Positions 20,409-40,360 of a stretch of 64,000 nt of DNA are shown one piece after another. A program made the position numbers and the translations under genes. A model generated the notes under the pieces. It was not told where the DNA came from, searched no databases, and was given only the letters and a program-made list of their open reading frames with translations. This DNA comes from Dehalococcoidia bacterium (GTDB lineage Bacteria > Chloroflexota > Dehalococcoidia > GIF9 > UBA5629): contig JBEKIW010000006.1 in the NCBI GenBank assembly GCA_050011565.1, positions 27,848 through 91,847 on the forward strand, written 5' to 3'. How positions within the stretch are numbered: the stretch's first letter is position 1; the number at the start of each line of letters is the position of its first letter.

Positions 20409-20429
20409 ACCTCCAACATTTTTCGGATG

Positions 20430-21167
20430 CTAGCTATATAAATGGAATCCTCTACCCGTCTTCTTACCCAACCAGCCGGCATCGACCATTCTCCTCAACA
20501 AGAAACAAGGCTGATATTTAGGCCCAAGTTGCTGCGCCATTGAGTCCAAGATCTCGACTACCCTGTCCACGCCCATGTTGTCGGCAAATTCGAACGGCCC
20601 CATAGGCCAGTTCACACAGACTTTCATCATGTTATCGATGTCCTCTTTGGTTGCCAGCTTCGACGAATACATTACAGCCGCCTCGTTGACTATCGAAGCA
20701 ATCACCCTATCCAGAATGAACCCCGGCGTCTCCTCTAGTGGCACCGCAGTAATCCCCACAGTTTCTAGCAACTCCATCACCGCCCGGACAGTCTCATCGG
20801 AAGTCTGCAGCCCCTTGACTACCTGAACCAGGTATTTATCCTCGAACGGATTTTTGGTGAAGTTTATACCGACAACTTTATCCTGCCTTTTGGTCCCCCC
20901 GGCTAACTGCGTCACCCACGGATTCGATGTTGTCGTGGCCAGTATCGTCTCTTTACGGCATTTGGCCTCACAGCTCTTGAATATTTTCTTCTTGGCAGCC
21001 AAATCTTCAGGAGCTACCTCAAGGACTAAATCAGACTCGCCCACCTGCTTGGCATAGTCCTCCTTCAAGTTAGCTATAAAGACCTTTAAGTTCGCTTTAC
21101 TTAGAAGCTCTTTGAGCTTGTCCGCCAGTTCCCCCTCTCCGATAACGCTGACCGTACTTATTTTCAT
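20430..21167 (-). CDS. 3-hydroxyacyl-CoA dehydrogenase homolog with degenerate active site
   Basis: C-terminal domain intact (PGFILDR, PMGPFE, GKKTGRGF). The NAD motif reads GEGELA and the His/Glu dyad reads GINF...LVQ. Confidence 0.8.
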   Translation of the reverse strand: MKISTVSVIGEGELADKLKELLSKANLKVFIANLKEDYAKQVGESDLVLEVAPEDLAAKKKIFKSCEAKCRKETILATTTSNPWVTQLAGGTKRQDKVVGINFTKNPFEDKYLVQVVKGLQTSDETVRAVMELLETVGITAVPLEETPGFILDRVIASIVNEAAVMYSSKLATKEDIDNMMKVCVNWPMGPFEFADNMGVDRVVEILDSMAQQLGPKYQPCFLLRRMVDAGWLGKKTGRGFHLYS

Positions 21168-22583: not shown

Positions 22584-22961
22584 TCATTTCCCCGCCTTCT
22601 TAAGAAACTCCTCAACCTTAGCCACCAGATCCCTCGGCTTAATAGGCTTGGAGATATACTCAGAAACATCAAAAGCAAACGGCTGGCCAAGCGACTCTGA
22701 AAAGCTGGTCAGTGCTAAAACAGGTACCTTGGCAAGCGACGGGTCTTTACGAAATTGGTCGGCAAACGTAAAACCATCGGCTACCGGCATCAATATGTCC
22801 AAAACGACTAAATCGGGCTTCTCTTTCTTTGCTTTTTCCAAGCCTTCCAGCCCGTTATAGGCTACAATCACCTCAAAAGCTTTGCTTTCCAAAGCTCCCC
22901 TCATCACTGTTACCAGGTCGACATCGTCGTCGACAAGCAAAATTTTTGGCCTCTGTTTCAT
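22584..22961 (-). CDS. single-domain response regulator (receiver only)
   Basis: ILLVDDD, DLVVLDILMP, LTS, YISKP; AAGGAGGT SD before MKQRP. Confidence 0.92.
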   Translation of the reverse strand: MKQRPKILLVDDDVDLVTVMRGALESKAFEVIVAYNGLEGLEKAKKEKPDLVVLDILMPVADGFTFADQFRKDPSLAKVPVLALTSFSESLGQPFAFDVSEYISKPIKPRDLVAKVEEFLKKAGK

Positions 22962-23013
22962 GTTAGTTACCTCCTTAATTATTTCCGTGAGACCCAACTA
23001 GCTATTGTATTGA

Positions 23014-24450
23014 CTACTTTTCAGCTACGAGCGCTCTATTTTTCGGCAAAGTAAAAGTAAATTTGCTTCCCTTACCCGTTTCAGCATCAGGACTCTCAGC
23101 CCAAATGCTACCTCCATGAGCTTCTACTATCCTCTTGGATATAGATAATCCTAAGCCCGTTCCCTTGGCTCCCACATTGCTACCCCGGAAGAAGTCATCA
23201 AAGAGTCGAGGCAGGTCATCAGGTGGTACACCAATTCCGGAATCTATTACTTCAATTCGGACTTCATTGTCACCATCTGCAGCTCTGACGAGTACGGTAC
23301 CTTCGCGAGTATAATTGATAGCATTGCTTGTCAGATTAGTTACCACCTGCTGTAGCCTCCGGTTGGAAGCGTAGACACTAGGAGAACTTTCGGGTAATTC
23401 AACTCTCAGCGTTAATCCCTTCTGTCTGGCTAAGTTATCCAGGCCATCCGTCGCCTGCTTTACCACATCGTTTAATGAGATCTCTCTCATCTCGCGATTA
23501 AGCTGCCCGGCTTCAATTCGAGGTATGTCCAGCAGGTCGGTAATCAATGTCAGCAGCCCATCGATTCTTCTGATGCCTCTTTGCATCAGGTCTTTTTGCC
23601 CATCGGTTATCTCACCAGTATACCCATCCACAATATAGGATAGCAAACTCTGAGTTGCCACAAGAGGAGACTGAAGGTCATGTGCGACAACGCTGAGGAA
23701 GCGGACAAAGCGACGCCGCTCTTCTACTAATTTGACCACTTCACCAGAAATCTGCTCCAACTCTACCTTCCTTTGTTCAAGAAGCTGGTCTTTCAATACC
23801 ACGACTTCTCGCTGCCGCCGTCTCAACTCACCGACAATAGCCGTGGCTACGTAAACTGTGGCATAGGCTAAGGTGACTAAAGCAACCAGAGCAGAGATAA
23901 CAACGCCCAGATCTTTGTATCGATCCGGAGGTACGAATCCCTCTAGATTTACATGCGGTATTGTCCCCCGATATTCCATGAGAACGAGAGCTGTAACCAT
24001 TACCATGGCAAAGGTGGTCAGTATATATACTCTACGTTTGGAAAGGAATATAGCTGCCGCATTGGTATGAATTATATACAGAAACAGAAACGGGTTTTCT
24101 ACTCCCCCGGTAAAGTGTATAATTGCCGTGAGCATTACCAAATCAAGAACGACCTGTATGTAGCCATAGGCCTCAGCTTTTCTGACTACCGAGTCAGGTT
24201 CTTGTTTCTCCAGACCTCTTGCCAAAAGAAAAAGCCAAAAATTATAGCCGGCGATAATTGCGCAAATAATATAAACAGGCAGGGTGGGAAAACCAACGTG
24301 AAATATCAGGGATGCTACGAGGGTGGCAATAACGATTGCCGGAATGGCAAGCCATCTCAGATTGATATAAACCCTGAGCCGCAGTACCAGTGCGCGCTGT
24401 TCAGGGGAATAATCCGTCGTTTTGCCTGCTTCAGAGGATGTACTATTCAT
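23014..24450 (-). CDS. membrane-bound sensor histidine kinase
   Basis: About 6 TM helices with LRWLA and TGGVENPF; H-box VAHDLQSPL, N-box NLTSNAINYT, DSGIG, GTGLGL. Confidence 0.93.
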   Translation of the reverse strand: MNSTSSEAGKTTDYSPEQRALVLRLRVYINLRWLAIPAIVIATLVASLIFHVGFPTLPVYIICAIIAGYNFWLFLLARGLEKQEPDSVVRKAEAYGYIQVVLDLVMLTAIIHFTGGVENPFLFLYIIHTNAAAIFLSKRRVYILTTFAMVMVTALVLMEYRGTIPHVNLEGFVPPDRYKDLGVVISALVALVTLAYATVYVATAIVGELRRRQREVVVLKDQLLEQRKVELEQISGEVVKLVEERRRFVRFLSVVAHDLQSPLVATQSLLSYIVDGYTGEITDGQKDLMQRGIRRIDGLLTLITDLLDIPRIEAGQLNREMREISLNDVVKQATDGLDNLARQKGLTLRVELPESSPSVYASNRRLQQVVTNLTSNAINYTREGTVLVRAADGDNEVRIEVIDSGIGVPPDDLPRLFDDFFRGSNVGAKGTGLGLSISKRIVEAHGGSIWAESPDAETGKGSKFTFTLPKNRALVAEK

Positions 24451-24659: not shown

Positions 24660-26123
24660 TTAAGGTCTCTGCACCGTCCGTATCAGGCTGCCATTCCTGT
24701 CCCTTATATTCACTTCAAGGGGCATGTTGCCCGGCAAGGCATGAGTGGCGCAGCCCAAACACGGGTCATAAGCTCTGAACGCCATCTCTACCATATTAAG
24801 TAAACCTTCCTTCACCTCGGGCCCCTTAACAAATTCCATGGCTGCTTTTTTAACGGATAAACATATCGGGGCCGCATTATGCTGGGTGGCTACTATGAGA
24901 TTCACTTTTGTAGTTTTGCCTTCAGCATCTGCCTCATAATGGTGAATCAAGGTTCCGCGTGCTGCCTCCACGCAGCCAATCCCGACCTTGCCCAATTTGA
25001 GATTCATATTCCGTATATCTTTACTGGTCAGCAAGGGGTCATTAACTATCCTCTGCATGTGTTCTGCGGCTTGAAGAGCCTCAATCAATCTTGCCCAATG
25101 ATAAGCCAGGGTGTGATGACTGGGCTTACCCCCGAGTATATCAAACATCGCCTCATATTCTTTCTGCGCCAGAGGCGTATACATGCTCTCAGCTACATTC
25201 AATCTCGCTAACGGCCCAACTCGGTAAAGCGAAGTTCCCTTATCATCGTTCAGCCCATTCCACCCCACTTTCCTCAGGTGAGTCATTCTTATATATGTCC
25301 AGGGTTCAATCCACTCACCTATGTGGTTTATGTAATCATGATAGTCGAACAAAGCAAATTCCTCGCCCTTTGGATTGACAACCCGCAATTTACCTTCGTA
25401 AAAGTTTACCCGCTTATTTTCATCAACCAGCCCCATATAATATGTGTTCAATTTATAGGCATCATTCAGTACCAGATTTAGATACTCCTTATTGTCCAGG
25501 ACAACCTGTTTGAACAATTCCAGCGCAAACTGAGTAAATTCAACAGAGAAGTCAGCAGTGTCCCTCATCCATTTTCGGTCCTCCTCTGTAATACCCCTGG
25601 ACACCCCTCCGGGTAACCCACCTTCAGGATGAGGAGGCTTGCTGGCGATATATCTGATTATCTCCCGGCACCTTTTCCTTACTTCAATAACTTTGCCGCC
25701 GATTTCTAACCCCACTTTGTTCACTACGCCGAGGATATTCCGTTCTGCAGGGGCGGCATTTGGCCCCAGCACAAAGTCCGGTCCGGCGAGAATAAAGAAA
25801 TGCAGTAAATGGTCTTCCACCATAAATGCATTATAGTGGAGCCCTCTTATCAGCTTTGCCGTAGGCGTTGGCTCCACCCCATAGAGGTCGTCTAATGCCT
25901 TGACTGACGCCATATTGTGAGGCGTGGGACAAACACCGCAAATATTAGGCATAATTCGCGGCAGTTCCTCCACAGGTCTACCCAGGCAAAACCTTTCAAA
26001 ACCTCTTAGCTCAACTACCTGCCAGTAGGCGTCGTCTACATTACCCTTATCGTCCAGGAAGATCTCAATTTTTCCATGTCCTTCAAGTCTGGTTATCGGG
26101 TTTATGGTTATCTTTTCGGTCAC
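24660..26123 (-). CDS. mvhA: [NiFe]-hydrogenase large subunit, Mvh/Vhu type (group 3c-like)
   Basis: TRLEGHG, RGFE, L1 NICGVCPTPH, L2 RAYDPCLGCATH plus cleavable C-terminal extension; neighbours mvhD/mvhG. Confidence 0.88.
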   Translation of the reverse strand: MTEKITINPITRLEGHGKIEIFLDDKGNVDDAYWQVVELRGFERFCLGRPVEELPRIMPNICGVCPTPHNMASVKALDDLYGVEPTPTAKLIRGLHYNAFMVEDHLLHFFILAGPDFVLGPNAAPAERNILGVVNKVGLEIGGKVIEVRKRCREIIRYIASKPPHPEGGLPGGVSRGITEEDRKWMRDTADFSVEFTQFALELFKQVVLDNKEYLNLVLNDAYKLNTYYMGLVDENKRVNFYEGKLRVVNPKGEEFALFDYHDYINHIGEWIEPWTYIRMTHLRKVGWNGLNDDKGTSLYRVGPLARLNVAESMYTPLAQKEYEAMFDILGGKPSHHTLAYHWARLIEALQAAEHMQRIVNDPLLTSKDIRNMNLKLGKVGIGCVEAARGTLIHHYEADAEGKTTKVNLIVATQHNAAPICLSVKKAAMEFVKGPEVKEGLLNMVEMAFRAYDPCLGCATHALPGNMPLEVNIRDRNGSLIRTVQRP

Positions 26124-26149
26124 ATTTCACCTCTTTCCTGTCTAATTCC

Positions 26150-27112
26150 TTAACCTCTTTTTTTCTTCAATCTTGAAGTTGGCACCGAGAATCTATACAG
26201 GTATCCTGCAAGGTCGGTAATCTGGTCCGCAATTCGGGTAATGTCTGCATCACTCTGTGCATCCATAATTGATGCTAAAGCAGAAACAAACTTAGCTCCC
26301 GAATCGGCTACTCCTTCCACTGGACCAAAGCATCCCCGGCATGGGACGTTGATATTTATGCAGGATTCTCCACAGCCATCCCTGGTGGCAGGGCCCAGGC
26401 AAATTATTCCTTGAGCTAGAAAACAGGTATCAGGGACAGCCTCCACCTCGTGAATCCTCTTAATTTCCCTTATCGCTAACCTTTCCGGCTTTGATTTATT
26501 TCGCTTGCAGCTATCACATAAAGCCCTCTGAGGCGCCAGGGTTGAGCCTTTAGGCGGAAGCTTATTTTCGAGGACTGCACTCAAGGCATACATCACCGAG
26601 TAAGGTGGAGGCGGGCATCCAGGTAAATAATAGTCGACATTGATTATGTCATTCAGTGCATAGACACGGTCATAGAATTCTGGGAGAGTGAGCTCTTTTC
26701 CGTTGACACGACTTTTTGTCTGTGGATATACCTTATCCGGATTGACCACTGTTGGAGCATCACGATAGACCCAGTTGAATATATCTTCTTTCGTGGTGAG
26801 GTTGGCTAATCCGGGTGTTCCTCCAAGGCAAGCGCAGGCACCAAAGGCGAGAATAATCTGAGATTTTTCCCTTAATAGCTTGGCTACCTCCTCCTGCTCA
26901 GAGTTTCTGACATTTCCGTTTATTATACTCAATGCGATATCGCCATCCTTTAGGGCTTTGATGCTGTCGTACTTAAAGTCCAGTGCCACCGGCCACAGAA
27001 CTAAATCAACCGCTCCAGCTACGCTGAGAATTACTTCGTTTATATCAACAACTGCCTCGTCACAGCCGCCACAACCCCCCAACCAGCAAATTGCAACTTT
27101 TGGCTTAGCCAT
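26150..27112 (-). CDS. mvhG: [NiFe]-hydrogenase small subunit, MvhG-like
   Basis: GCGGCD, FGACA, YLPGCPP, C-terminal CDSC...CFL..G..CLGPAT..GC...C....PCRGCFG. Confidence 0.88.
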   Translation of the reverse strand: MAKPKVAICWLGGCGGCDEAVVDINEVILSVAGAVDLVLWPVALDFKYDSIKALKDGDIALSIINGNVRNSEQEEVAKLLREKSQIILAFGACACLGGTPGLANLTTKEDIFNWVYRDAPTVVNPDKVYPQTKSRVNGKELTLPEFYDRVYALNDIINVDYYLPGCPPPPYSVMYALSAVLENKLPPKGSTLAPQRALCDSCKRNKSKPERLAIREIKRIHEVEAVPDTCFLAQGIICLGPATRDGCGESCININVPCRGCFGPVEGVADSGAKFVSALASIMDAQSDADITRIADQITDLAGYLYRFSVPTSRLKKKRG

Positions 27113-27113
27113 C

Positions 27114-27563
27114 CTATTTCCTCCCCCCAGCTTTAACCGCTTCTTTTTTGGATGTTTTCCGCACTTCTGTGCTCCTCTTCGGCGGTCCCAACTTTGCCAG
27201 GTCCTCCATCATCTCCTTAGCTAATTGCTGAATTCTGATACCTTCCGGGTCAACGGATAGCTCTATCCTGATCCTTTCCTTCTCTATACCAATTGACTCC
27301 AGCAGCCTGCGAAGGAGATATACCCTCTTTTTCGCCTCGAAGTTACCGTCTTGATAGTGGCAGTCACCTTCCGGACAGCCGAGTATCAAGATTCCATCCG
27401 CCCCTCTTTCAAATGCATCAATCATGTGCGTGGCATCAATTTTTCCTGTGCAAATAATAGGTATCCAATTATCTATCTGGTTGGAAAGGCTAGTTTCGTC
27501 TGTCAGATAACCCCAACCAAATTTGCAAGAGAAACACACTAATTTGGGTTTATATTGGCTCAA
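27114..27563 (-). CDS. mvhD: MvhD/FlpD-like [2Fe-2S] subunit
   Basis: KLVCFSC, ICTGKID, AFERGADGILILGCPEGDCHY..GN, GIEKERI. TTG start chosen from AAGGAGG SD spacing (track start is 27593). Confidence 0.88.
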   Translation of the reverse strand: MSQYKPKLVCFSCKFGWGYLTDETSLSNQIDNWIPIICTGKIDATHMIDAFERGADGILILGCPEGDCHYQDGNFEAKKRVYLLRRLLESIGIEKERIRIELSVDPEGIRIQQLAKEMMEDLAKLGPPKRSTEVRKTSKKEAVKAGGRK

Positions 27564-27598
27564 TGTCATCCTCCTTGATAATACTTTACTCAAAGCAT

Positions 27599-29392
27599 CT
27601 ATGATAAGGCCGCATACACGCTGGCTATCCTCTCAGCCGTATCGTCATCAACCATTTTTCTGGCCTGAGATGGACAAGCGACAACACACATACCACATGA
27701 CTTGCACTTAAACATATCCGTTTCAGAAACGATTTTATCACCGCGATTAACTAATCGAGATGCGTAATAGTTACAGGTATAGACACAATGGCCGCAGCCG
27801 CTACATTTGGCGATATCCACCTCAACCGGACTTAGAGATTTCTGAAATCCAATCGATACGCATGCTTTACAGGACAAACAGGGGCCGCAAGTAACACATC
27901 TTTTCGCTTCCTCTATTGCCTCTTTTAATGTCAAGCCCTTTTCAAAAAGTTGGAAATGCATTCTGTTTTCAGGTGGTATCCACAGTACCTCAGGTTCAGG
28001 CTTGTAGTCTCTCCTAACCGGTATCGTGTATCCCTCGTAGTCCCTTCTGCGGCCCTCCTTCATATCCACGCCCCTTAAACACCTGTCAATCGATTCGGCA
28101 GCCACAAGCCCTTCGGCCATAGCTTCTATCATAAAGCCTACCCTCCTCACATCACCGCCAATGAATAGCCAGGGCTTACTTGCACTTTGCAGTGTTAAAT
28201 GGTCCACATCAAGCCTGCCCCGTTCATTCAAAAGATTTTCCTTCTGGAGTAACGGCCTGTCCGGAGCCTGTCCCACAGTGATTATAAGCACGTCCCCTGC
28301 CAAATCAATGCAATCAGTACACTCGAACTTCGGATTGAAACCCTGTTCATCAAACACACTAACACATGTTGGGCATTCGATTCCCTTGAACTTCCCATTC
28401 TGCCCCATAATCTTTCTCACCCCGCGGCTATAGACTATTCTTACACCCTCTTCCCAGGCTCCCCGGATTTCCTCTTCATCAGCAGGCACACCGTCTCTAT
28501 GGTCCTTGTCCTCTCGTTCAAGCGCTACGACGGTCACATCCCCACCCTGCCTCCTGGCTGATCTGGCCACGTCAAAAGCCACGTTTCCACCTCCGGTGAC
28601 TATGACTTTTTTACCCTTGAAATAATTTGAGGCGATATTGTTGTGGCTGACTTCGTAAAGATAAGTGTGGCCATACATCACACCCGACAGGTCCTGCCCC
28701 TCCACAAATTGTCCTTCAAAGGTTAATACTCTAGGATATGGCAATCCAGTTGCCAGAAAAACTGCCTTATAGCCCTCATTCTTCAATCTTTCCAGCGTCA
28801 GTCTCCCTTCCCCAAGACGGCTTTTATACCTGACATCTATGCCGGCAATCCTAATCAGGTTCTCGACTGTAGTCTGGAGAATATCCTTCGGCAGGCGGTA
28901 GTCTGGTACCAGCCATAAGGCGCCGCCAAGCCGGTCAGAGGCTTCAACTATCGTTACCCGGTATCCTCTCTTGCTTAAATCGTAGGCACACATTAGCCCG
29001 CCCGGCCCGCCGCCTACGACAGCCACATTTTCCTTGTTTTTGGGTATCTCTAATTCCTCTTGCTCCTTTAAATGTTCAGTATATACATCCGAAAGGAATC
29101 TTTTTAGCAGTCTCCTCTTGATTGCGCCACCCTTCTTGCCATAATTACACTCCAGTTCGCAAATACCGCAAATGTAACCACAAATGTTGAAGAAAGGGTT
29201 CTTTCCATAGAGATATTCACTAATCTGGATGACACCATTTTTCGCCAAATCCGGGTCTTCCGGGAGAAGAGAAATCAGCACATTTGTCCGCTGAATATCC
29301 TCATTTATCGGGCATTTGATTTGGCACGGCGGCAGACACTGTCTTACCGCTGTCTCCACATGCGTCACCCCGGTAGCTTCAGTTTTCCACAT
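27599..29392 (-). CDS. GltD/NfnB-like FAD/FeS oxidoreductase with a C-terminal HdrA-like 2x[4Fe-4S] domain
   Basis: PPCQIKCP...CGYICGICELEC, GGGPGG, IP-type PDYRLP, GGGNVAFD, GGD, AKRCVTCGPCLSCKAC, then CSGCGHCVYTC and CKSCGMCVVACP. Start ATG 29392 behind AAGGAGGT. Confidence 0.85.
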   Translation of the reverse strand: MWKTEATGVTHVETAVRQCLPPCQIKCPINEDIQRTNVLISLLPEDPDLAKNGVIQISEYLYGKNPFFNICGYICGICELECNYGKKGGAIKRRLLKRFLSDVYTEHLKEQEELEIPKNKENVAVVGGGPGGLMCAYDLSKRGYRVTIVEASDRLGGALWLVPDYRLPKDILQTTVENLIRIAGIDVRYKSRLGEGRLTLERLKNEGYKAVFLATGLPYPRVLTFEGQFVEGQDLSGVMYGHTYLYEVSHNNIASNYFKGKKVIVTGGGNVAFDVARSARRQGGDVTVVALEREDKDHRDGVPADEEEIRGAWEEGVRIVYSRGVRKIMGQNGKFKGIECPTCVSVFDEQGFNPKFECTDCIDLAGDVLIITVGQAPDRPLLQKENLLNERGRLDVDHLTLQSASKPWLFIGGDVRRVGFMIEAMAEGLVAAESIDRCLRGVDMKEGRRRDYEGYTIPVRRDYKPEPEVLWIPPENRMHFQLFEKGLTLKEAIEEAKRCVTCGPCLSCKACVSIGFQKSLSPVEVDIAKCSGCGHCVYTCNYYASRLVNRGDKIVSETDMFKCKSCGMCVVACPSQARKMVDDDTAERIASVYAALS

Positions 29393-29853: not shown

Positions 29854-30366
29854 TTGAAGCAAGCAAAGAAACCTACGACAACCAAGTCAAAAACCGGCAA
29901 ACAGCTCACCAGCAAAACACTCCAGCAAATCAGAAAGATAGTCGAAGCCACTGATGGCAGGGCTGGGGCTCCAATTCGAGTGCTGCAGCAAGTGCAGGGG
30001 CTGGTCGGCTATCTACCACCCGAAGTTTTAAGAACTGTCTCCAAGGAGATGGGGATCCCACTGAGTGAAATATACGGCATAACCAGCTTCTATTCCTTTT
30101 TCTCGATGGTACCGAAAGGTAAATATGTCCTTCAAGTCTGTCTCGGCACCAGTTGCTACGTAAAAGGGGCCGAAAGGATTCTAAAGACGATGAAGAAGGA
30201 CTACAGCCTTGAGTCGGGTGGAATTACTTCCGACGGAAAATTCTCGCTGGAGACAGTAAGATGCCTGGGCTGTTGCGGTCTATCTCCGGTTATGGCAATA
30301 AAAGAAAATGTCTATCGAAAGGTAAAACCAAGCCAGATAAAAGACATCCTGACTTCATATAAATAG
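29854..30366 (+). CDS. NuoE/HydC/HoxE-like [2Fe-2S] subunit
   Basis: GYLPPE, VCLGTSCYVKG, RCLGCCGLSP. TTG start 5 nt after AGGAGG. Confidence 0.9.
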   Translation: MKQAKKPTTTKSKTGKQLTSKTLQQIRKIVEATDGRAGAPIRVLQQVQGLVGYLPPEVLRTVSKEMGIPLSEIYGITSFYSFFSMVPKGKYVLQVCLGTSCYVKGAERILKTMKKDYSLESGGITSDGKFSLETVRCLGCCGLSPVMAIKENVYRKVKPSQIKDILTSYK

Positions 30367-30375
30367 GAGAATGAG

Positions 30376-33300
30376 ATGAAACCACTTGCATCTGTAAAAG
30401 AACTGACACAGCTTAGAGGTAAAATACAAGAGAGGCTAGCCAAACAAGAGAAGAAGATCCAAGTTAAGGTTCATCTTGGCACGTGCGGTATATCCTCAGG
30501 AGCAAACAAGGTCCTTCAAGCTTTTCAACAGGGAGTGAAAAGCAACAAATTATCGGATGTCTCCGTGCTTAAGGCAGCATGCATCGGTTTGTGCGACCGA
30601 GAGCCGGTAGTTACCGTCGTGCATCCCGCAACCGGAAAAACTATTTATTACGACGTCACCGAGGACAAAGTCTCCAAAATTATCGAGAAACATCTTATTC
30701 GCAATAAGGTGGTCGATGAATGGAAGCTGGACACTACTGACCCGCTGCTCAAGCTACAGGAGATACGGGTAATGCATAACCAGGACCTCGACCCGATGAA
30801 TATAGATGAGTACATTGCCCGGGACGGCTACCAGGGGTTAGCTAAGGCTCTTGCCCAAATGAAGCCGGATGAAGTCATCTCAGAAATCGGGAAGGCTGGC
30901 CTGAGAGGCCGTGGAGGAGCAGGCTTCCCCACAGGCACGAAATGGACATTCGTTCGCAGCGCGGCTGGTGATGAAAAATACGTTGTCTGCAATGGCGACG
31001 AGGGTGACCCGGGTGCTTATATGAACCGAGCCGTCCTTGAAGGAAATCCGCACTCAATAATCGAAGGAATGGCAATAGGAGCTTATGCCATAGGCAACGT
31101 ACTCCAGGGCTACGCGTATGTCCGTGCCGAATACCCCCTGGCCATCGAGACATTAAATCATGCCATAACCAAGGCTCGAGAATACGGCCTGCTGGGGAAG
31201 AACATACTCGGTACCGGCTTTGAATTCGACCTGGATATATTCCCCGGCGCCGGCGCTTTCGTCTGCGGCGAGGAGACTGCCCTTTTAACCTCAATCGAAG
31301 GCAAACGAGGTAATCCACGCCAGCGACCGCCGTTCCCGGCTAACAAAGGACTTTTTGATAAACCGACTACGTTAAATAATGTGGAAACCTGGTCAAACGT
31401 TCCACAGATAATCTGGAAAGGGGCCGATTGGTTTGGAAGTGTCGGCACTGCAAGCAGCAAAGGTACAAAGACACTGTGTCTGGTTGGAAAGGTCAATAAC
31501 ACCGGGCTGGTTGAGGTTCCGTTGGGCACCAGCCTGGGTAAAATTGTATTTGACATAGGCGGTGGCATACCGAAAGGAAAGCAGTTCAAGGCAGTGCAGA
31601 TAGGTGGGCCTTCGGGTGGAGTTATTCCCATCGAACATCTGAACACCCCCGTCGACTATGAAGCTGTAACCGCCCTGGGTGCAATTATGGGTTCAGGTGG
31701 GCTTGTAGTCATGGATGAGGATAGTTGCATGGTCGATGTGGCTAAATTCTTCCTGCAGTTCACCAGGGACGAGTCATGTGGTAAATGCACTCCATGCCGG
31801 GCAGGAATACCAAAGATGCTTGCTTTCCTGACCAAGATAACCGAAGGTAAAGGAACAATGGAAGACCTGAATATACTTTCGGAGCTGGCTGACATGGTGT
31901 GCTCCGCATCCATCTGCGGCCTGGGACAAACAGCTCCCAATCCAGTTCTGACCACACTGCGCCATTTCAGAGATGAATATGAAGCCCACATAATAGACAA
32001 GAAGTGCCCGGCTGTAGTCTGCCAGGCCCTGTTCAGGGCTCCATGTCAGGGAACATGCCCTGTAGGGCTCGATGCACCGGGTTATATCGCTTTCATTAAG
32101 GAGAATAATTTCGAACAGGCTTGCCGAGTTATTATGCAGCGGCTGCCATTACCCTTAAGCGTAGGGCGGGTATGCCCTCACCCGTGCGAAAGTAAGTGTC
32201 GTCGAGGCCAAGTAGAAGAGCCGATAGCCATCAGACAACTACACAGGTTCGCTACCGATTACGCTTTTGAGCATGGATTCGAATATAAACCGGATATTAA
32301 AGAGCGGAAGAAAGAAAAGATAGCTATCATCGGCGCGGGGCCGGCAGGATTATCCGCAGCCTGGGACCTCGCCCACGAAGGATACCAGGTTGCCATATTT
32401 GAAGCATTGCCTGTAGCCGGCGGCATGTTGGCCGTCGGTATCCCTGAGTACCGGCTGCCGAAGGACCTGCTTAAAAAAGAGATTGATATCATCCAGAAAC
32501 TCGGCGTAGAAATAAAATTGAATACGCGGGTAGAAGATATAGAAGCCCTGTTAAAAGAGAATAAATATCAAGCCGTATTCATTGCTACGGGTGCCCACAA
32601 GGGAGATAAGATGAAGATTCCGGGCGAAGACCTGGCTGGAGTCTTCGACGCTATCAACTTTCTGAGAGAGCTGAATCTGGGAAAGAAAATAAAGGTGGGG
32701 CAGAAAGTAGCTGTCATTGGTGGCGGCAACTCTGCCATCGATGCAGCTCGAGTAGCTTTGAGAGAAGGTGCCAAAGAGGTACACATTCTCTACCGGCGGG
32801 AGAGGAAAGATATGCCGGCACTGACGGATGAGGTAGTAGCGGCTGACGAGGAAGGCGTTCAAATCCACTGTTTGACAGCCCCTACCAAGATTCTGGGTAA
32901 TAACGGCGTAGTCACCGGACTCGAATGCATCCGCATGGAACTTAAAGAGTTCGATACCAGCGGAAGAAGGACTCCCAACCCCATTAATGGGTCTGAGTAT
33001 ACAATGAATTTCGACACGGTTATTGAAGCCACGGGACAAAGACCGGATACTTCATTTTTGGGTGGGGACGGTATTGGCACGGCCAAGGGCGGAACAATAG
33101 CAGCCGACCCGAGAACCCTCGCCACCAATCGCGAAGGCGTTTTCGCCGGAGGAGACGCAGTTACCGGCGCAGCAACAGTAATCGAAGCTATTGCCGCCGG
33201 ACAGAGGGCAGCCTCATCCATAAAAAGATATCTCCGCGGCGAGAAACTCTCGCCGTTGGTAGAACGCAACGGCTATCAGCCAATTGCCATCCCTCCCATA

Positions 33301-33468
33301 CCTCCTACTGAGGAGGAACTGAAAGAAAGGCCGAGGGTAGCAATGACAGAGGTAGGCAGCTCACAAAGAAAAGGCTCTTTTAAAGAGGTAGTCTTGCCCT
33401 ACAGTCCGAAGGAAGCGAAAAGCGAAGGTAGCCGCTGTCTTAGATGTGATCTTGAGGTAGGAGAATAA
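30376..33468 (+). CDS. NuoF/HydB-like FMN/NADH subunit fused to a GltD/NfnB-like FAD/NAD(P)H module
   Basis: N-terminal thioredoxin-like FeS domain, GLRGRGGAGFPTG, CNGDEGDPGA, GAGAFVCGEETAL, ESCGKCTPCR, CGLG; then APCQGTCP, GRVCPHPCESKC, GAGPAG, GIPEYRLP, GGGNSAID, YRR, RCLRCD. Confidence 0.9.
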   Translation: MKPLASVKELTQLRGKIQERLAKQEKKIQVKVHLGTCGISSGANKVLQAFQQGVKSNKLSDVSVLKAACIGLCDREPVVTVVHPATGKTIYYDVTEDKVSKIIEKHLIRNKVVDEWKLDTTDPLLKLQEIRVMHNQDLDPMNIDEYIARDGYQGLAKALAQMKPDEVISEIGKAGLRGRGGAGFPTGTKWTFVRSAAGDEKYVVCNGDEGDPGAYMNRAVLEGNPHSIIEGMAIGAYAIGNVLQGYAYVRAEYPLAIETLNHAITKAREYGLLGKNILGTGFEFDLDIFPGAGAFVCGEETALLTSIEGKRGNPRQRPPFPANKGLFDKPTTLNNVETWSNVPQIIWKGADWFGSVGTASSKGTKTLCLVGKVNNTGLVEVPLGTSLGKIVFDIGGGIPKGKQFKAVQIGGPSGGVIPIEHLNTPVDYEAVTALGAIMGSGGLVVMDEDSCMVDVAKFFLQFTRDESCGKCTPCRAGIPKMLAFLTKITEGKGTMEDLNILSELADMVCSASICGLGQTAPNPVLTTLRHFRDEYEAHIIDKKCPAVVCQALFRAPCQGTCPVGLDAPGYIAFIKENNFEQACRVIMQRLPLPLSVGRVCPHPCESKCRRGQVEEPIAIRQLHRFATDYAFEHGFEYKPDIKERKKEKIAIIGAGPAGLSAAWDLAHEGYQVAIFEALPVAGGMLAVGIPEYRLPKDLLKKEIDIIQKLGVEIKLNTRVEDIEALLKENKYQAVFIATGAHKGDKMKIPGEDLAGVFDAINFLRELNLGKKIKVGQKVAVIGGGNSAIDAARVALREGAKEVHILYRRERKDMPALTDEVVAADEEGVQIHCLTAPTKILGNNGVVTGLECIRMELKEFDTSGRRTPNPINGSEYTMNFDTVIEATGQRPDTSFLGGDGIGTAKGGTIAADPRTLATNREGVFAGGDAVTGAATVIEAIAAGQRAASSIKRYLRGEKLSPLVERNGYQPIAIPPIPPTEEELKERPRVAMTEVGSSQRKGSFKEVVLPYSPKEAKSEGSRCLRCDLEVGE

Positions 33469-33470
33469 GC

Positions 33471-35459
33471 ATGAAAGAGATTACACTAACAATCGATGGT
33501 AAGCAGGTCAAGGGGAAAGAGGGCGATACTGTCCTCGAGGTCTGTCAGGCTAACAATATCGATGTGCCAACTCTCTGCCATTCAAAGGGACTGACGGACG
33601 TCGGCGCTTGCCGTATGTGCGTCGTCGATATAGAAAGAGAAAGACGACCTGTCCCGGCGTGTACCTACCCGGCACGAGAAGGTTTGGTAGTACAGACCCA
33701 AAATGAAAAACTGGAGAAATATCGCCGGCTGGTTCTAGAACTCATGTTCACCGAACGAAACCATCTCTGTGCCCAGTGCGTAGCCAGTGGCGACTGCGAA
33801 TTACAGCAACTAGGCTACCGGTATCAAATGGATAATACGCGATATCCCTATTCATGGCCTTCTCTGCCGGTTGATTCGCAGCACGAATACCTGGTCATCG
33901 ACCACAACCGGTGCATCCTCTGCGGCCGATGCATAAGAACGTGCGATCAAATTGTAGGTGTTCATACACTCGATTTCGGGTACCGCGGCTGGAAAGACGT
34001 AGTAGTAGCTGACCTTAATCAACCTCTGGGAAAGTCCACCTGTATTTCTTGCGGCGCTTGTTTTCAAGCTTGCCCAACAGGTGCCATCTTTTCCAAGAAG
34101 AGCGCCTACAAGGGCAAACGTCCGGATTCACAGGAGATAACCACTGTTTGCCCCATATGTGGTATCGGCTGTACGATTCAAGCGTTCGTCAAGAACAACA
34201 TGTTGATAAGGATAGACAGCCCCGACGCTTCCCAACACGATGGTCTACTCTGCTATATGGGGCGTTTTGGTCCCTTAAGTCAGAGTCAAGCCAGAGTAAA
34301 GACACCGATGATGCGAAATGCCCGCGGTAAGCTGGAGCCCTGCACATTGAATGAAGCTGTTGATATGGTATCTAAGAAGCTCAGCCAGCTTAAAGCGCAT
34401 AATGGGGGCGGCAGCATAGCCGGAGTGGCTTCAAGTCAGGCCAGTAGCCAGGCACTGAAAGCATTCAAGGAATTAATTACAGGAGCCCTGGGTAGTAAGT
34501 TTATGGATAGTCTCGACGGAGATGAGTATAGGGCCGTTATCAAAGGTATCGGCGCTTTCCAGGATAAGGCGGATTTAAGTACTGAAACGCCACTGGAAGA
34601 TATTTTTAATGCTGACTGTGTGCTCCTGGTCGGTGCCGACCCGTTCAAAAGCCATCCTGTAGCCGGGTCTTATATCGTTAGAGCGGTCAGACAGAACAAG
34701 GCAAAGCTCATCATTCTTGACCCAACACAAAATGTTTTACCGGATTATGCGGCGCTGTGGTTGAAGCCAAAGAAGGGTAAGGAAGCTCTGACTCTTAATA
34801 GTCTGGCTAAAGCTATAATAGACAATGGTTTGACTAAAAATTCCGCACAGGTAAAGAAAATTGCTGCTGCACTAAACAAAGTCAATATTAAGCAGGATGC
34901 TGTAGCCGCTGGAATTAATTATAAAAAGCTCATTGAGGCAGCTGAAACACTCGGCAAAGCCAAGAGCAGCGTCGTCGTCTACGGTGAAGGCATTCTAAAA
35001 CATCAAAATTCGGGGCTAATAACCGCCATATACAACCTGGCGGCTGTTTCCGGCGGACGGAACGGTGGCAAGCCGGGAATCATATCTCTAAAGTCCAAGG
35101 GAAATAGCCGGGGTGCCTGGGACATCGGTATAGCCAATAGTTCCGTTTCTGTTATAAATAACTTAGCTCAAAACGGTATAAAGGCATTATATCTGCTTTT
35201 AGCCGATGACCAGGTTGAGGCAAAAGAATTACCGGGACTGCTCAAAGGAGTGGATTTCCTGGTCGTTCAAGCCAGTTATCTATCGCCACCGGCCCAAAAA
35301 GCCAATGTAGTTTTGCCGTCACCAACCTGGACAGAAATAAGCGGAAATTACAGCACTCTGGATGGTTCGCCCATATCAGTATCGCGCTTAGTAAAGCCGC
35401 CAGAGGGGATAAGGGCAGATTGGGAAATCATCAACGAAATCGCCAAGCGCTTCAAGTAA
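33471..35459 (+). CDS. NuoG/HydA-like FeS subunit with a cofactor-less molybdopterin-oxidoreductase domain
   Basis: [2Fe-2S] (CH..GACRMC..C), HxCxxCxxxxxC, CILCGRC..C, CISCGAC..CP, CPICGIGC...LCYMGRF. The Fdh-like body has GSKFMDSLDG where formate dehydrogenases carry the Mo/W-ligating Cys/Sec. Confidence 0.85.
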   Translation: MKEITLTIDGKQVKGKEGDTVLEVCQANNIDVPTLCHSKGLTDVGACRMCVVDIERERRPVPACTYPAREGLVVQTQNEKLEKYRRLVLELMFTERNHLCAQCVASGDCELQQLGYRYQMDNTRYPYSWPSLPVDSQHEYLVIDHNRCILCGRCIRTCDQIVGVHTLDFGYRGWKDVVVADLNQPLGKSTCISCGACFQACPTGAIFSKKSAYKGKRPDSQEITTVCPICGIGCTIQAFVKNNMLIRIDSPDASQHDGLLCYMGRFGPLSQSQARVKTPMMRNARGKLEPCTLNEAVDMVSKKLSQLKAHNGGGSIAGVASSQASSQALKAFKELITGALGSKFMDSLDGDEYRAVIKGIGAFQDKADLSTETPLEDIFNADCVLLVGADPFKSHPVAGSYIVRAVRQNKAKLIILDPTQNVLPDYAALWLKPKKGKEALTLNSLAKAIIDNGLTKNSAQVKKIAAALNKVNIKQDAVAAGINYKKLIEAAETLGKAKSSVVVYGEGILKHQNSGLITAIYNLAAVSGGRNGGKPGIISLKSKGNSRGAWDIGIANSSVSVINNLAQNGIKALYLLLADDQVEAKELPGLLKGVDFLVVQASYLSPPAQKANVVLPSPTWTEISGNYSTLDGSPISVSRLVKPPEGIRADWEIINEIAKRFK

Positions 35460-35478
35460 TTGATAAGGAGTAAATAAT

Positions 35479-36015
35479 ATGGCAAAAGTGAAGGTAGCTT
35501 CGGTCTGGCTGGAAGGCTGTGCCGGATGTCATATGTCATTTTTAGACATCGATGCAGCCATAATTGATTTAGCCAACGTGGTTGAATTCACCAGGACTCC
35601 TATTACCGATATAAAGGAGTTCCCACAGGTAGACGTCGGCATCGTGGAAGGCTCTGTGGGTAATACCGAAGAGGAGGAAGTCCTCAAAGACCTCAGGGCT
35701 CATTGCAAAATTCTTATGGCCTGGGGCGACTGTGCCTGTTTTGGCGGCGTGTGTGCTATGCGCAGTACCCTTGACAAAGAAGATGTGCTAAGGCGCGCCT
35801 ATATCGAGTCTGAGAGCACTTTTGAGGGCAAAATACCGCGCCCGCCCGGTGTACCGGCACTTCTGGACCAGGTAAAACCGATAAATAATATCGTGAAAGT
35901 TGACTGTTACGTTCCCGGCTGCCCGCCGGAACCTAAAGCCATCTTGTATGGCTTAAATGAACTGCTGGCAGGTAGGATACCTGTTTTGCCCCCAGACATG
36001 ATGCGCTTTGATTAA
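35479..36015 (+). CDS. hoxY: [NiFe]-hydrogenase small subunit, HoxY type (single proximal cluster)
   Basis: [24 protein letters not shown]; 178 aa. Confidence 0.88.
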
Positions 36016-36032
36016 ATCTGAGAGGTGTTGCT

Positions 36033-37484
36033 ATGGTTTCTGAAGTTAAAAAGGCAAATGCCAAAAGAACAATTGAGATAAACCCGGTTAGCCGGATTGA
36101 AGGACACGGCAAGGTGACTATCCAATTGGATGAGGCGGGCAATGCCATTGATGCCAAGTTCAATGTAACGCAGTTTCGAGGCTTCGAGAAGTTCTGCGAG
36201 GGCAGGGTACTCTGGGAAATGCCCTCCATTACGCCCAGAATCTGCGGAATCTGCCCGGTAAGTCATCATCTGGCCGCAGCTAAAGCCTGCGATGCGATAT
36301 TAGGCGTGGAACTAACTCGTCCGGCTAAATTACTTCGTGAGCTGATGCACATGGGACAATATATCCAGTCCCATGCTCTTCACTTCTTCCATTTAGCCAG
36401 CCCTGATTTGCTATTGGGTCTGGATGCCGACCCGGCAATAAGAAACGTAATCGGGTTAATTGGTGTGAACCCGGAGCTGGCAACTAAAGGTGTATTGCTT
36501 CGCAGCTTCGGGCAAACAATCATCCAGAGTCTCGGCGGTAAAAAGGTCCACCCCAACGGCGCTGTACCCGGCGGTATGAACACACCGCTGTCAACGGCCG
36601 ACCGTGACCATTTTCTCAAGCAAATAGATTGGGCGATTGCCGATGCCGAAACCGCAATCAACATACTTAAACAGTACTACGACCAACACAACGAATTCGT
36701 TTGTAGCTGTGCCAGCTTCCCAACAGGTTATCTTGGATTGGTCGACAAAAACAACAATCTAGAGTTGTACGATGGTAAATTAAGGCTGATCGATTCCAAG
36801 GGCAAAGTACTTGAAGACCAGTTCAACCCTTCCAACTATCTCGATATCATCAATGAGCATGTGGAGGACTGGTCTTACCTTAAGTTCCCGTTTTACAAGA
36901 AGCTCGGCTATCCAGCCGGTACATACCGCACTGGCCCGCTCGGCCGACTAAACGTTTGCCAGGGAATATCAACGCCTCGAGCCAATGCCGAACTTAAGAA
37001 TTTCAAGAAAATTGGCAATGGTGGCCCTGTAGAAGGCTCGCTATATTACCACTATGCCCGACTGATAGAATTACTTTATTCGCTGGAGAGGGCCCAACAG
37101 CTCTTAGAGGACCGGGATATTTGTTCCACCGACCTGATAGTGACATCGAACAAATTTAATGAACAAGGCGTCGGTGTCTTAGAAGCTCCGCGTGGAACTT
37201 TATTCCACCATTACTGGGTAGATGACAGCGGTAAAATAACCAAGGTAAATCTCATAGTAGCTACCGGGAATAATAATGCAGCCATGAACAAGGCTGTGTA
37301 TACAGTGGCTAAAGAATTCATAAAGAATAATAAAATCACCGAAGGAATTCTTAATCGAGTCGAGGTTGCTATCCGTTGCTATGACCCCTGTCTTTCCTGC
37401 TCGACCCATGCTTTGGGTCAAATGCCGTTCCGAATCGAAGTCATCTCGGCTGACGGTAAGGTAGTTCAAGAAATAACCAGATAG
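36033..37484 (+). CDS. hoxH: [NiFe]-hydrogenase large subunit, HoxH type (group 3d-like)
   Basis: [49 protein letters not shown] plus C-terminal extension. Confidence 0.9.
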
Positions 37485-39691: not shown

Positions 39692-40360
39692 CTGTTAACG
39701 TTAACCATTGATGGCATCGAGGTCAAGGCCAGGGCAGGAACCAGCATACTCTGGGTAGCCCTAGATAATGGACTTTACATTCCTAATTTGTGCGCTATCA
39801 GAGAAGCCGGCACGCCCTTCGCTTCCTGCCGCCTCTGCTTTGTGGAAATAGAAGGCAGAAGTGCCCCCATTACCGCTTGCACTGAGCCGGTCAGCGATGG
39901 CATGGTAGTACACCTGAATACGCCAAAAGTTAAGAGACTTAGAAATACCGCCTTTGAGCTTCTGCTCAGCCACCATAATCTAGACTGCGTCCATTGTGCC
40001 AAAAATAAAAACTGCGGACTGCAGAAAACCGCCGCTAACCTCAAGTTAAAGCTGAAGCCTAAGAGGTTTAGACGCATACCACGAAATTTACCGATAGATT
40101 CCAGCCATACCCTGTTTACCTACGACCCAAACAAATGCATTGTATGTGGCAAATGCATTTGGGTGTGTCAACAGCAAGGTTCAGGCATACTCGATTTCGC
40201 TTACAGAGGCATTGACACAGTGGTCAGCACTTTCTCGGGTATGCCGCTGGCTGAGGCGGGCTGTACCTCCTGCTTGGCCTGCGTCACCGTCTGTCCGGTA
40301 GGCTCACTGACGGTTAAGTCCGGTGTGGGCACTATCTTTATTCCCAGGGCAGGTATTTGA
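39692..40360 (+). CDS. stand-alone NuoG/FdhA N-terminal-like FeS protein ([2Fe-2S], His-ligated and 2x[4Fe-4S] sites), probable CTG start
   Basis: Frame is open from 39668. Upstream of the track start it reads LTLTIDGIEVKARAGTSILWVALDNGLYIPNLC. Also SCRLC, HNLDCVHC, CIVCGKC, CTSCLACVTVCP. GAGGAG SD 7 nt before CTG at 39692. Confidence 0.8.
   Translation: MLTLTIDGIEVKARAGTSILWVALDNGLYIPNLCAIREAGTPFASCRLCFVEIEGRSAPITACTEPVSDGMVVHLNTPKVKRLRNTAFELLLSHHNLDCVHCAKNKNCGLQKTAANLKLKLKPKRFRRIPRNLPIDSSHTLFTYDPNKCIVCGKCIWVCQQQGSGILDFAYRGIDTVVSTFSGMPLAEAGCTSCLACVTVCPVGSLTVKSGVGTIFIPRAGI

What the first reader, a model, noticed from the sequence alone, without database searches (positions are those of the whole stretch)
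29854..37484. HydABCSL-like [NiFe]-hydrogenase whose NuoF subunit swaps its ferredoxin tail for a second flavin/NADPH module
Seen: the order is NuoE-like, a 1030-aa NuoF-like, a NuoG-like with an Fdh-like body lacking the metal ligand, HoxY and HoxH. After HIIDKKCPAVVCQAL the NuoF subunit does not continue into a 2x[4Fe-4S] domain. It continues into a full GltD/NfnB module with GGGNSAID...LYRR. Established: this five-subunit layout matches the electron-bifurcating NiFe-HydABCSL of Acetomicrobium mobile, where HydB's C-terminal clusters form the ferredoxin branch, and YRR marks NADP(H) use in GltD/NfnB. Inference: one complex has both an FMN/NADH and an FAD/NADPH site and could link H2, NAD(H) and NADP(H) as a hydrogenase-transhydrogenase. 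NuoF-GltD fusions are known in other anaerobes; their biochemistry with a NiFe module is what looks open.
Basis: partly seen in the sequence, partly recalled or inferred. Interest (0 to 1): 0.75.

Follow-up and report, generated by a model that had tools for sequence, protein, structure and literature searches.

The report
NiFe hydrogenase with NADPH output arm
Five intact genes encode a soluble nickel-iron hydrogenase whose flavoprotein carries an NADPH-binding module where its relatives dock ferredoxin, so it probably links hydrogen gas to both NADH and NADPH, a wiring already noted in iron-only hydrogenases but, as far as I could find, never tested.

Summary
Observation confirmed. The operon is a HydABCSL-type (NiFe-Bfu) hydrogenase of a Dehalococcoidia genome. 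In HydB the B3/B4 ferredoxin domain is replaced in frame by an FAD/NADP(H) module (residues 554-1025). One correction: the module is the circularly permuted NfnA/StnC type, whose FAD does not bifurcate, and not NfnB. The FAD-proximal cluster ligand is Lys in 64 of 69 fusions, His here, and Glu in none. The FMN core keeps the bifurcating-type A-x-M motif, HydC and the Zn hinge; four tail-less HydB copies carry T-F-K instead. A model docks the module at the hinge where the ferredoxin domain normally sits. Best reading (0.5): gated coupling 2 H2 + NAD+ + NADP+ = NADH + NADPH, without ferredoxin. Main rival: an ungated branch from cluster B1, since FMN-less B1+module proteins occur without HydC. 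The fusion is in print for [FeFe] enzymes (PMC11406978, 'sub-type I BfuB'). This scan noted it before on other genomes, NiFe versions included. I found no paper on the NiFe form and no biochemistry. New variant of a known kind; interest 0.52.

The parts
29854..30366 (+). HydC/BfuC (NuoE-like, 170 aa) carrying the mobile C1 [2Fe-2S] cluster
   Evidence: PF01257; best PDB hits 8a6t_C and 7t2r_C; four Cys in 20 of 20 NiFe-type loci; start from the Shine-Dalgarno position
30376..33468 (+). HydB/BfuB fused to an NADP(H)/FAD module, 1030 aa, one ORF
   Evidence: AlphaFold2 with 115 sequences, pLDDT 89.3, pTM 0.87; no solved chain covers both halves (best TMq 0.52)
30445..30690 (+). [quoted passage not shown]
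   Evidence: PF01257 at residues 24-105; C69 and C73 in 69 of 69 fusions
30781..32022 (+). NuoF core: FMN/NAD(H) site with A214-x-M216, SLBB domain, B1 [4Fe-4S] (C468, C471, C474, C514), Zn-type B2 hinge (C451, H538, C544, C549; T489 in place of A. mobile C476)
   Evidence: alignment to 7t2r_B; conservation counts; metal assignment inferred from PMC12018979 and PMC8880783 passages
32035..33450 (+). Circularly permuted NfnA/StnC-type module: distal [4Fe-4S] (C557, C608, C1021, C1024), proximal [4Fe-4S] (C561, C600, C604, H623), FAD Rossmann fold, NADP(H) site (GxGxxA at 782, YRR at 806)
   Evidence: aligned end to end with 9bov_A 101-567 and 8oh5_C 101-566; H623 aligns with StnC K170 and with the NfnL Glu; ligand counts; the assignment of Cys to the two clusters is inferred from recalled NfnB spacing
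33471..35459 (+). HydA/BfuA: clusters A1-A5 and a catalytically dead Fdh-like body
   Evidence: best PDB hit 7t2r_A over residues 1-660; all 20 cluster ligands checked are invariant in 20 of 20 loci
35479..36015 (+). HydS (HoxY-like small subunit, one [4Fe-4S])
   Evidence: 7t2r_E, 205 bits; four Cys in 20 of 20
36033..37484 (+). HydL [NiFe] large subunit with RxCxxC and DPCxxCxxH and a C-terminal extension
   Evidence: 7t2r_D, 615 bits, against 462 for HoxH 5xf9_D; motifs in 20 of 20; a maturation protease gene lies elsewhere in the genome
37676..39151 (+). Mrp/Nbp35-like ATPase and NifU-like scaffold, probable Fe-S assembly helpers
   Evidence: Pfam; the same two genes follow HydL in L001 and L003 only

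Best explanation
A soluble five-subunit [NiFe] hydrogenase that couples H2 to NAD(H) and NADP(H) without ferredoxin: 2 H2 + NAD+ + NADP+ = NADH + NADPH + 2 H+. Electrons run NiFe-S1-A3-A2-A1-B1-FMN, as in A. mobile (path from the paper, cofactor ligands shown here). The B1-FMN-C1 site sends one pair to NAD+. The mobile HydC domain carries the lower-potential pair to the distal [4Fe-4S] of the fused module, which sits on the Zn hinge in place of B3/B4 (inferred). From there the electrons pass through the His/Lys-ligated cluster to a non-bifurcating FAD and NADP+ (inferred from StnC/NfnA, where the same module runs as NADPH input). With cellular potentials from the literature the coupled reaction is at equilibrium near 100-200 Pa H2, against 3-7 kPa for NADP+ alone and 3-14 Pa for NAD+ alone. 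Above that pressure it would make NADPH from scarce H2; below it, NADPH would help the cell dispose of NADH as H2. The direction in vivo is not determined.
For: Shown: all ligands of both flavin modules are conserved in fusions down to about 48% identity. A214 is kept in 67 of 69 and M216 in 68 of 69; PMC9304861 names these residues as absent from non-bifurcating enzymes. Four of four tail-less HydB copies in related NiFe operons carry TFKD instead (L025; L173, L174, L177). A HydC gene lies within 1.2 kb upstream in 64 of 70 fusions, and three of the misses start within 160 bases of a contig end. Hinge C549 is kept in 69 of 69 fusions and in 30 of 32 representatives with a NuoF core, but in 2 of 23 FMN-less B1+module proteins. 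A model of the two halves supports docking: score 0.70, best of 3 controls 0.00; the mark was reached by 116 of 157 solved and 2 of 215 mismatched pairs (roughly, own alignment); runs agree in at least 92% of contacts, partner pLDDT at least 87. Its contacts put residues 554-560 and 606-611 against the hinge (448-449, 540-548) and the 858-863 hairpin against SLBB (386-423). In T. sibiricus NfnABC, C1 cannot reduce ferredoxin without B3/B4, and ferredoxin binds beside the ubiquitin-like (SLBB) domain. The thermodynamics are computed.
Against: No activity, expression or cluster distance was measured, and no coordinates were available. FMN-less proteins made of the B1 domain plus the same module sit beside an [FeFe] HydA-type gene with no HydC hit in 5 of 5 loci (H-cluster domain confirmed for 3 of 3 scanned), so a direct B1-to-module wire looks workable in this domain order. 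The hinge motif is also kept in 3 of 4 tail-less copies, so it does not prove gating. A-x-M may be inherited without use. The docking model is of two halves of one chain, which tend to pass, and unlisted residues are no evidence of no contact. The roughly 100 mV gap between the NAD and NADP pools is small compared with the NAD/ferredoxin gap these enzymes normally span. The genome already has NfnSL for NADPH.
Confidence: 0.5

Rival explanations
1. Ungated branch: B1 passes electrons directly to the module, so the enzyme is a plain H2:NADP+ (and H2:NAD+) oxidoreductase, possibly with loose NADPH:NAD+ transhydrogenase activity, and does not bifurcate.
For: A family of roughly 600-680 aa proteins has the B1 domain plus this module and no FMN domain. 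Five of 5 such loci have a HydA-type neighbour and no HydC hit. The spacing from C544 to C557 is 13 residues in at least two of them, as here. The NADPH-only formate dehydrogenase of M. thermoacetica uses an SfrB-type beta subunit; that SfrB has this domain order is recalled, not tested.
Against: FMN-less proteins have mostly lost hinge C549 (kept in 2 of 23), which fits a freed tether. The model docks the module at the hinge end, one 15-residue helix away from B1 (inference). An open wire would drain NADPH into NAD+. Fusions keep A-x-M while tail-less copies lose it.
Confidence: 0.24
2. Four-substrate enzyme: the distal cluster stands in for B3/B4 and still exchanges electrons with ferredoxin, as the distal cluster of NfnL does (recalled), with NADP(H) as an extra substrate on the low-potential arm.
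For: Two [4Fe-4S] sites remain on the same tether, 8 residues after the hinge in 70 of 70 fusions. The genome has five short ferredoxin-like ORFs.
Against: The proximal ligand is Lys/His, which in StnC is thought to raise the potential relative to Glu. The modelled hairpin covers the SLBB surface near which ferredoxin binds in T. sibiricus (inference). Reduced ferredoxin would run downhill to NADP+ unchecked.
Confidence: 0.14
3. The FAD is a second, NfnB-like bifurcation centre (the proposal of PMC11406978 for sub-type I BfuB, and the first reader's 'b-FAD' lead).
For: R693 is conserved in 69 of 69. Three of 32 more distant representatives with a NuoF core do have Glu at the ligand position.
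Against: Glu in 0 of 69 fusions from loci (K 64, H 3, R 2). The topology and best scores match StnC/NfnA, whose FAD is described as non-bifurcating. No NfnS-like partner lies in the operon; the genome's own NfnL has Glu and its own NfnS next door.
Confidence: 0.06

Closest known systems
NiFe-HydABCSL (Type 3 NiFe-Bfu) of Acetomicrobium mobile, PDB 7T2R/7T30, PMC8880783
   Same: Five subunits; best PDB hit for A, B, S and L; dead Fdh-like body with A1-A5; A-x-M motif; B1, hinge and C1 ligands.
   Different: No B3/B4 ferredoxin domain; a 477-residue FAD/NADP(H) module instead; Thr in place of C476, so a Zn-type hinge is expected; His in the B5 site.
[quoted passage not shown]
   Same: The same swap: B3/B4 replaced by DPD_II plus an FAD/NAD(P) domain; genome-only, untested.
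   Different: Here the input is a [NiFe] module through a dead Fdh-like HydA. The paper proposes FAD bifurcation, which the Lys/His ligand argues against. I read passages, not its supplements.
Nfn-Bfu / StnABC transhydrogenases (PDB 8OH5, 9BOV, 9N5U; PMC10482914, PMC12018979, PMC11829005)
   Same: The same permuted module with a non-Cys, basic fourth ligand, YRR and GxGxxA; the same BfuBC core.
   Different: There the module sits in subunit A as mid-potential NADPH input and B keeps B3/B4 for ferredoxin. Here it sits on B's low-potential tether and H2 is the input.
NfnSL (NfnAB), PDB 4YLF/5JCA
   Same: Homologous FAD/NADP(H) fold with two [4Fe-4S] clusters.
   Different: Unpermuted, Glu-ligated, needs NfnS, and bifurcates at FAD.
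FMN-less B1+GltD proteins (about 600-680 aa; beside [FeFe] HydA, or named formate dehydrogenase beta subunit)
   Same: B1 bundle followed by the same permuted, Lys-ligated module (23 of 23 Lys).
   Different: No FMN/NAD domain, no HydC hit in 5 of 5 loci, hinge C549 mostly lost.

Membership tests
Bfu family / NiFe-Bfu (PMC9304861) | BfuB with FMN/NADH, SLBB and B1 domains | tested here: met
Bfu family / NiFe-Bfu (PMC9304861) | BfuB C-terminal ferredoxin domain with B3/B4 (IPR017896) | tested here: not met
   no CxxCxxCxxxC motif, no Fer4 hit; replaced by the module
Bfu family / NiFe-Bfu (PMC9304861) | B2 hinge ligands (3 Cys + His) and B5 site | tested here: met
   C451, H538, C544 and C549 in 69 of 69; B5 site H33/C37/C69/C73; metal identity not testable
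Bfu family / NiFe-Bfu (PMC9304861) | Signature residues F182, A202, M204 of A. mobile | tested here: inconclusive
   A202 and M204 align with A214 and M216 (met). By my count of the PDB chain the nearby Phe is F180, aligned with F192, so the paper's F182 could not be matched exactly
Bfu family / NiFe-Bfu (PMC9304861) | BfuC with C1; BfuA with A1-A5; S and L subunits | tested here: met
Bfu family / NiFe-Bfu (PMC9304861) | Coupled reduction of NAD+ and ferredoxin | not testable with these tools
   needs purified enzyme; the loss of B3/B4 argues against it
NfnSL-type bifurcating NfnB/NfnL | Glu ligand on the FAD-proximal cluster | tested here: not met
   H623; K 64, H 3, R 2, E 0 of 69
NfnSL-type bifurcating NfnB/NfnL | NfnS partner gene adjacent | tested here: not met
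   none in the operon; a separate NfnSL pair lies on contig C1
NfnSL-type bifurcating NfnB/NfnL | Arg hydrogen-bonded to FAD N5 | not testable with these tools
   R693 is present, but so is StnC R239, which does not bond N5
NfnA/StnC-type NADP(H) module | Permuted topology, basic fourth ligand, GxGxxA and YRR | tested here: met
   His rather than Lys in this protein
Sub-type I BfuB architecture (PMC11406978) | B3/B4 replaced by DPD_II + FAD/NAD(P) domain | tested here: met
Sub-type I BfuB architecture (PMC11406978) | Part of a group A3 [FeFe]-hydrogenase | tested here: not met
   HydA has no H-cluster domain; NiFe S and L follow

The most novel reading that the evidence does not exclude
A Bfu-type enzyme that bifurcates between two pyridine-nucleotide pools with no ferredoxin at all, NADP(H) serving as the low-potential partner, built on a plug-in tail that has been exchanged with the ferredoxin domain several times and is used with NiFe, FeFe and formate inputs. 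It would be a new reaction type for the family, and a handle on how little driving force the B1-FMN-C1 gate needs.
Probability: 0.45. Interest if true: 0.75.

Novelty: new variant of a known kind. Interest (0 to 1): 0.52.

Why it matters
Every characterised Bfu enzyme in the papers I read uses ferredoxin on its low-potential arm, and the mechanism of the FMN site is still open. An enzyme whose low arm ends in NADP+ would test whether the gate depends on ferredoxin-level potentials, with small-molecule substrates only. It would also explain how low-energy anaerobes could make NADPH at about 30 to 50 times less H2 than a plain NADP-hydrogenase needs, or shed NADH as H2 at higher pressure. Surveys that define BfuB by the ferredoxin domain miss this branch. 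Annotations that call it 'NuoF' or assume ferredoxin bifurcation would be wrong for many sediment Chloroflexota.

Tried and rejected
Artefact (misassembly or frameshift join): rejected; the fusion is in frame in 70 loci. Degenerate second site: rejected; the FAD, NADP and cluster motifs are intact in 20 of 20 NiFe-type fusions. Active Fdh in HydA: rejected; no catalytic Cys motif. Single origin of the fusion: rejected on the NuoF-half tree, 6 state changes (4 forced by starred branches), AU p = 0.0002. Caveats for that test: 45 of 121 rows, picked after seeing the FastTree tree, LG+G4 quick mode, and gain cannot be told from loss or recombination. A fold without alignment was useless (pLDDT 35). 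Cluster distances could not be measured because no coordinates reach the script box. No RNA holder was listed for the stretch, so no reads were laid. The promoter/terminator scan gave counts at or below shuffled levels (8 against 12.2, 11 against 13.9). Covariation of the modelled contact residues (F859, G388, N423 together in 34 of 69, all absent in 30) follows one lineage and is not counted as independent support. The 5843 hits were not taken as a count of fusions, since GltD-only matches could reach that threshold. The reductive dehalogenase search was blank, but so were its controls. I could not confirm the domain order of SfrB from papers. Supplements of PMC11406978 and PMC9304861 were not read and may list NiFe-linked fusions.
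Full report
Observation. The five genes are present, intact and closely spaced (gaps of 9, 2, 19 and 17 bases). Pfam and PDB searches split the 1030-aa protein into a HydB part (residues about 3-553; best hit 7t2r_B, 683 bits) and a flavoprotein module (554-1025; best hit 9bov_A 101-567). A, S and L also match A. mobile HydABCSL best (438, 205 and 615 bits), and C second best. Close relatives are named Dehalococcoidia. The genome is 2.0 Mb and 99.2% complete.

Anatomy of HydB. I aligned 69 distinct full fusions from 121 loci (70 found, one duplicate dropped). The four B1 Cys are present in 68-69 of 69, the hinge ligands C451/H538/C544/C549 in 69 of 69, both Glu of CGEET in 69 of 69, A214 in 67 and M216 in 68. 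T489 replaces A. mobile C476, which the T. sibiricus paper links to Zn at this site. The module is circularly permuted relative to NfnB: the N-terminal RCLxC of 4ylf_B and 5jca_L aligns with the C-terminus here, as in NfnA/StnC. H623 aligns with StnC K170 and with the NfnL Glu. The column reads K 64, H 3, R 2, E 0; among 32 more distant representatives with a NuoF core it reads K 20, H 7, E 3, other 2. PMC10482914 and PMC12018979 describe the Lys-type FAD as non-bifurcating. GxGxxA and YRR are intact in 20 of 20 NiFe-type fusions; NADP specificity is inferred from these motifs and NAD specificity of the FMN site from likeness to HydB.

Partners. Twenty distinct fusions, window included, are followed by a 640-702 aa HydA, HydS and HydL, and all ligands checked in C, A, S and L are invariant in them. 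I labelled 28 others Fdh-linked by the length of the neighbouring gene (catalytic motif found in 9 of 15 checked); 21 could not be assigned. A phylum-wide search with HydA matched 12 of 301 genomes at E <= 1e-110. Five loci from outside the class show the same A-S-L module with three kinds of HydB: ferredoxin tail (L176), NADPH tail (L175, a second lineage, 53% identical in the NuoF half), or a canonical copy plus a tail-less TFKD copy (L173, L174, L177). In the NuoF-half tree fusions are not one clade (caveats under Tried and rejected). L092 joins a NuoF half of the NiFe clade (79%) to a module of the Fdh clade (47%). The tail behaves as an exchangeable plug-in.

Where the module sits. AlphaFold2 folds the whole chain with pLDDT 89.3 and pTM 0.87, and no solved chain spans both halves. 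Folding the halves as separate chains gave score 0.70 against 0.00 for the best of 3 controls; the mark was reached by 116 of 157 solved and 2 of 215 mismatched pairs (roughly, own alignment), with at least 92% agreement of contacts and partner pLDDT of at least 87. Halves of one chain tend to pass, so I use only the location of the contacts: the cluster domain against the hinge (448-449, 540-548) and a hairpin against SLBB (386-423). That is the side where the ferredoxin domain is tethered and where HydC swings out to within 10.4 A of B3/B4 in T. sibiricus NfnABC. The B1 ligands are not among the listed contacts, which the tool says is no evidence either way.

Mechanism. Shown: two complete nucleotide modules, a complete NiFe wire, HydC and the bifurcating-type signature. 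Inferred: C1 delivers the low-potential pair to the distal cluster and on to NADP+, giving 2 H2 + NAD+ + NADP+ = NADH + NADPH. Using -280/-300 mV and -370/-380 mV (PMC9304861, PMC6288185), the equilibrium lies at 98-213 Pa H2, against 3.3-7.1 kPa for NADP+ alone. The strongest result against this reading is a large family of FMN-less B1+module proteins. Five of 5 loci examined have a HydA-type neighbour and no HydC hit (H-cluster domain in 3 of 3 scanned), so a direct B1 wire looks workable in this domain order. They differ by losing hinge C549 (kept in 2 of 23, against 30 of 32; 67 of 150 representatives spanned the junction, 12 were unclear, and at least one FMN-less protein fell in the wrong class). 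Also against: three tail-less copies keep the hinge motif, so the hinge alone proves nothing. I give gating 0.5, the ungated branch 0.24, retained ferredoxin use 0.14 and FAD bifurcation 0.06.

Genome context. The genome has four canonical HydB paralogues with ferredoxin tails (beside Fdh, Por and CODH/ACS genes), an NfnSL pair with a Glu-type NfnL, HdrA/HdrL proteins and a hydrogenase protease. No RnfD and no PntB were found, while the controls rang in 4 of 14 genomes each. The organism thus keeps this variant beside ferredoxin-linked ones, which fits a distinct job but also means NADPH supply does not depend on it.

Literature. PMC11406978 (passages read) reports this domain swap in [FeFe] group A3 'sub-type I BfuB' and proposes a second, FAD-based bifurcation centre; it reports no biochemistry in the passages seen. 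PMC9304861 (parts 1-3 of 9 and passages) defines BfuB by domains that include the ferredoxin domain, so this protein fails strict membership while working parts are shared. Also read: PMC11829005 (part 1 of 8), PMC12018979 (passages and section 8), and passages of PMC8880783, PMC10482914, PMC7483475, PMC13040438, PMC6288185, PMC5736913, PMC10327494, PMC6085437 and bioRxiv 10.64898/2026.04.10.717634. PMC7325909 was seen as a listing only. Searches found no description of a NiFe-linked form and no assay of any such fusion. The library lacks most subscription journals and I read no supplements. Earlier notes of this scan describe the same fusion on other genomes, NiFe forms included; they are leads, not support.

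Verdict. Real, conserved, and a variant of a known kind. The architecture of the subunit is in print; the NiFe context, the non-bifurcating type of the module and its repeated exchange are what this study adds. The enzyme's reaction is untested and worth testing. Interest 0.52.

Noticed in passing
window 24660-29392 (- strand): A divergent operon: MvhA, MvhG, MvhD and a 597-aa GltD-like flavoprotein (likely start 29392) with a Lys ligand, a C-terminal ferredoxin domain and an acidic residue in place of YRR, suggesting NAD(H). It lies beside the fusion operon in L001, L003, L004, L016 and L092. Already followed up in this scan (e1-6663226).
   Followed up: partly
window about 39692-40360 (+): A HoxU-like gene (A1, A4, A2/A3 clusters only), probably starting at a CTG behind GAGGAG; similar genes follow the operon in L001, L003, L007, L086, L088 and L091. 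It could be an alternative A-type adaptor.
   Followed up: partly
window 22584-24450 (-): A membrane histidine kinase and a stand-alone receiver downstream of the Mvh operon, also seen in L003, L004 and L016.
   Followed up: no
L092:6929-10057: A chimeric fusion: NuoF half 79% identical to the window's, NADPH module from the Fdh-linked clade (47%), in a NiFe operon.
   Followed up: partly
L173, L174, L177, L025: NiFe A-S-L operons carrying two HydBC pairs, one bifurcating-type (ferredoxin tail, or the NADPH tail in L025) and one tail-less TFKD copy; they may be exchangeable heads on one hydrogenase.
   Followed up: partly
L156-L160: Two-gene units: an FMN-less B1+GltD protein (616-627 aa) and an [FeFe] HydA-type gene, with no HydC hit; candidate simple NADP-dependent hydrogenases.
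   Followed up: partly
L124:11039-14521 (G000 contig C2): An HdrL-like protein of 1161 aa whose GltD module also has His at the fourth-ligand position and YRR.
   Followed up: no
L121 (G000 contig C1, 394-405.5 kb): Two BfuBC pairs in tandem with a split Fdh, a 574-aa NuoG/GltD-like protein lacking YRR, and NfnSL directly downstream.
   Followed up: no
window 19539-21167 (-): Two adjacent ORFs that look like 3-hydroxyacyl-CoA dehydrogenases by eye (not scanned), a possible NADH source near the hydrogenases.
   Followed up: no
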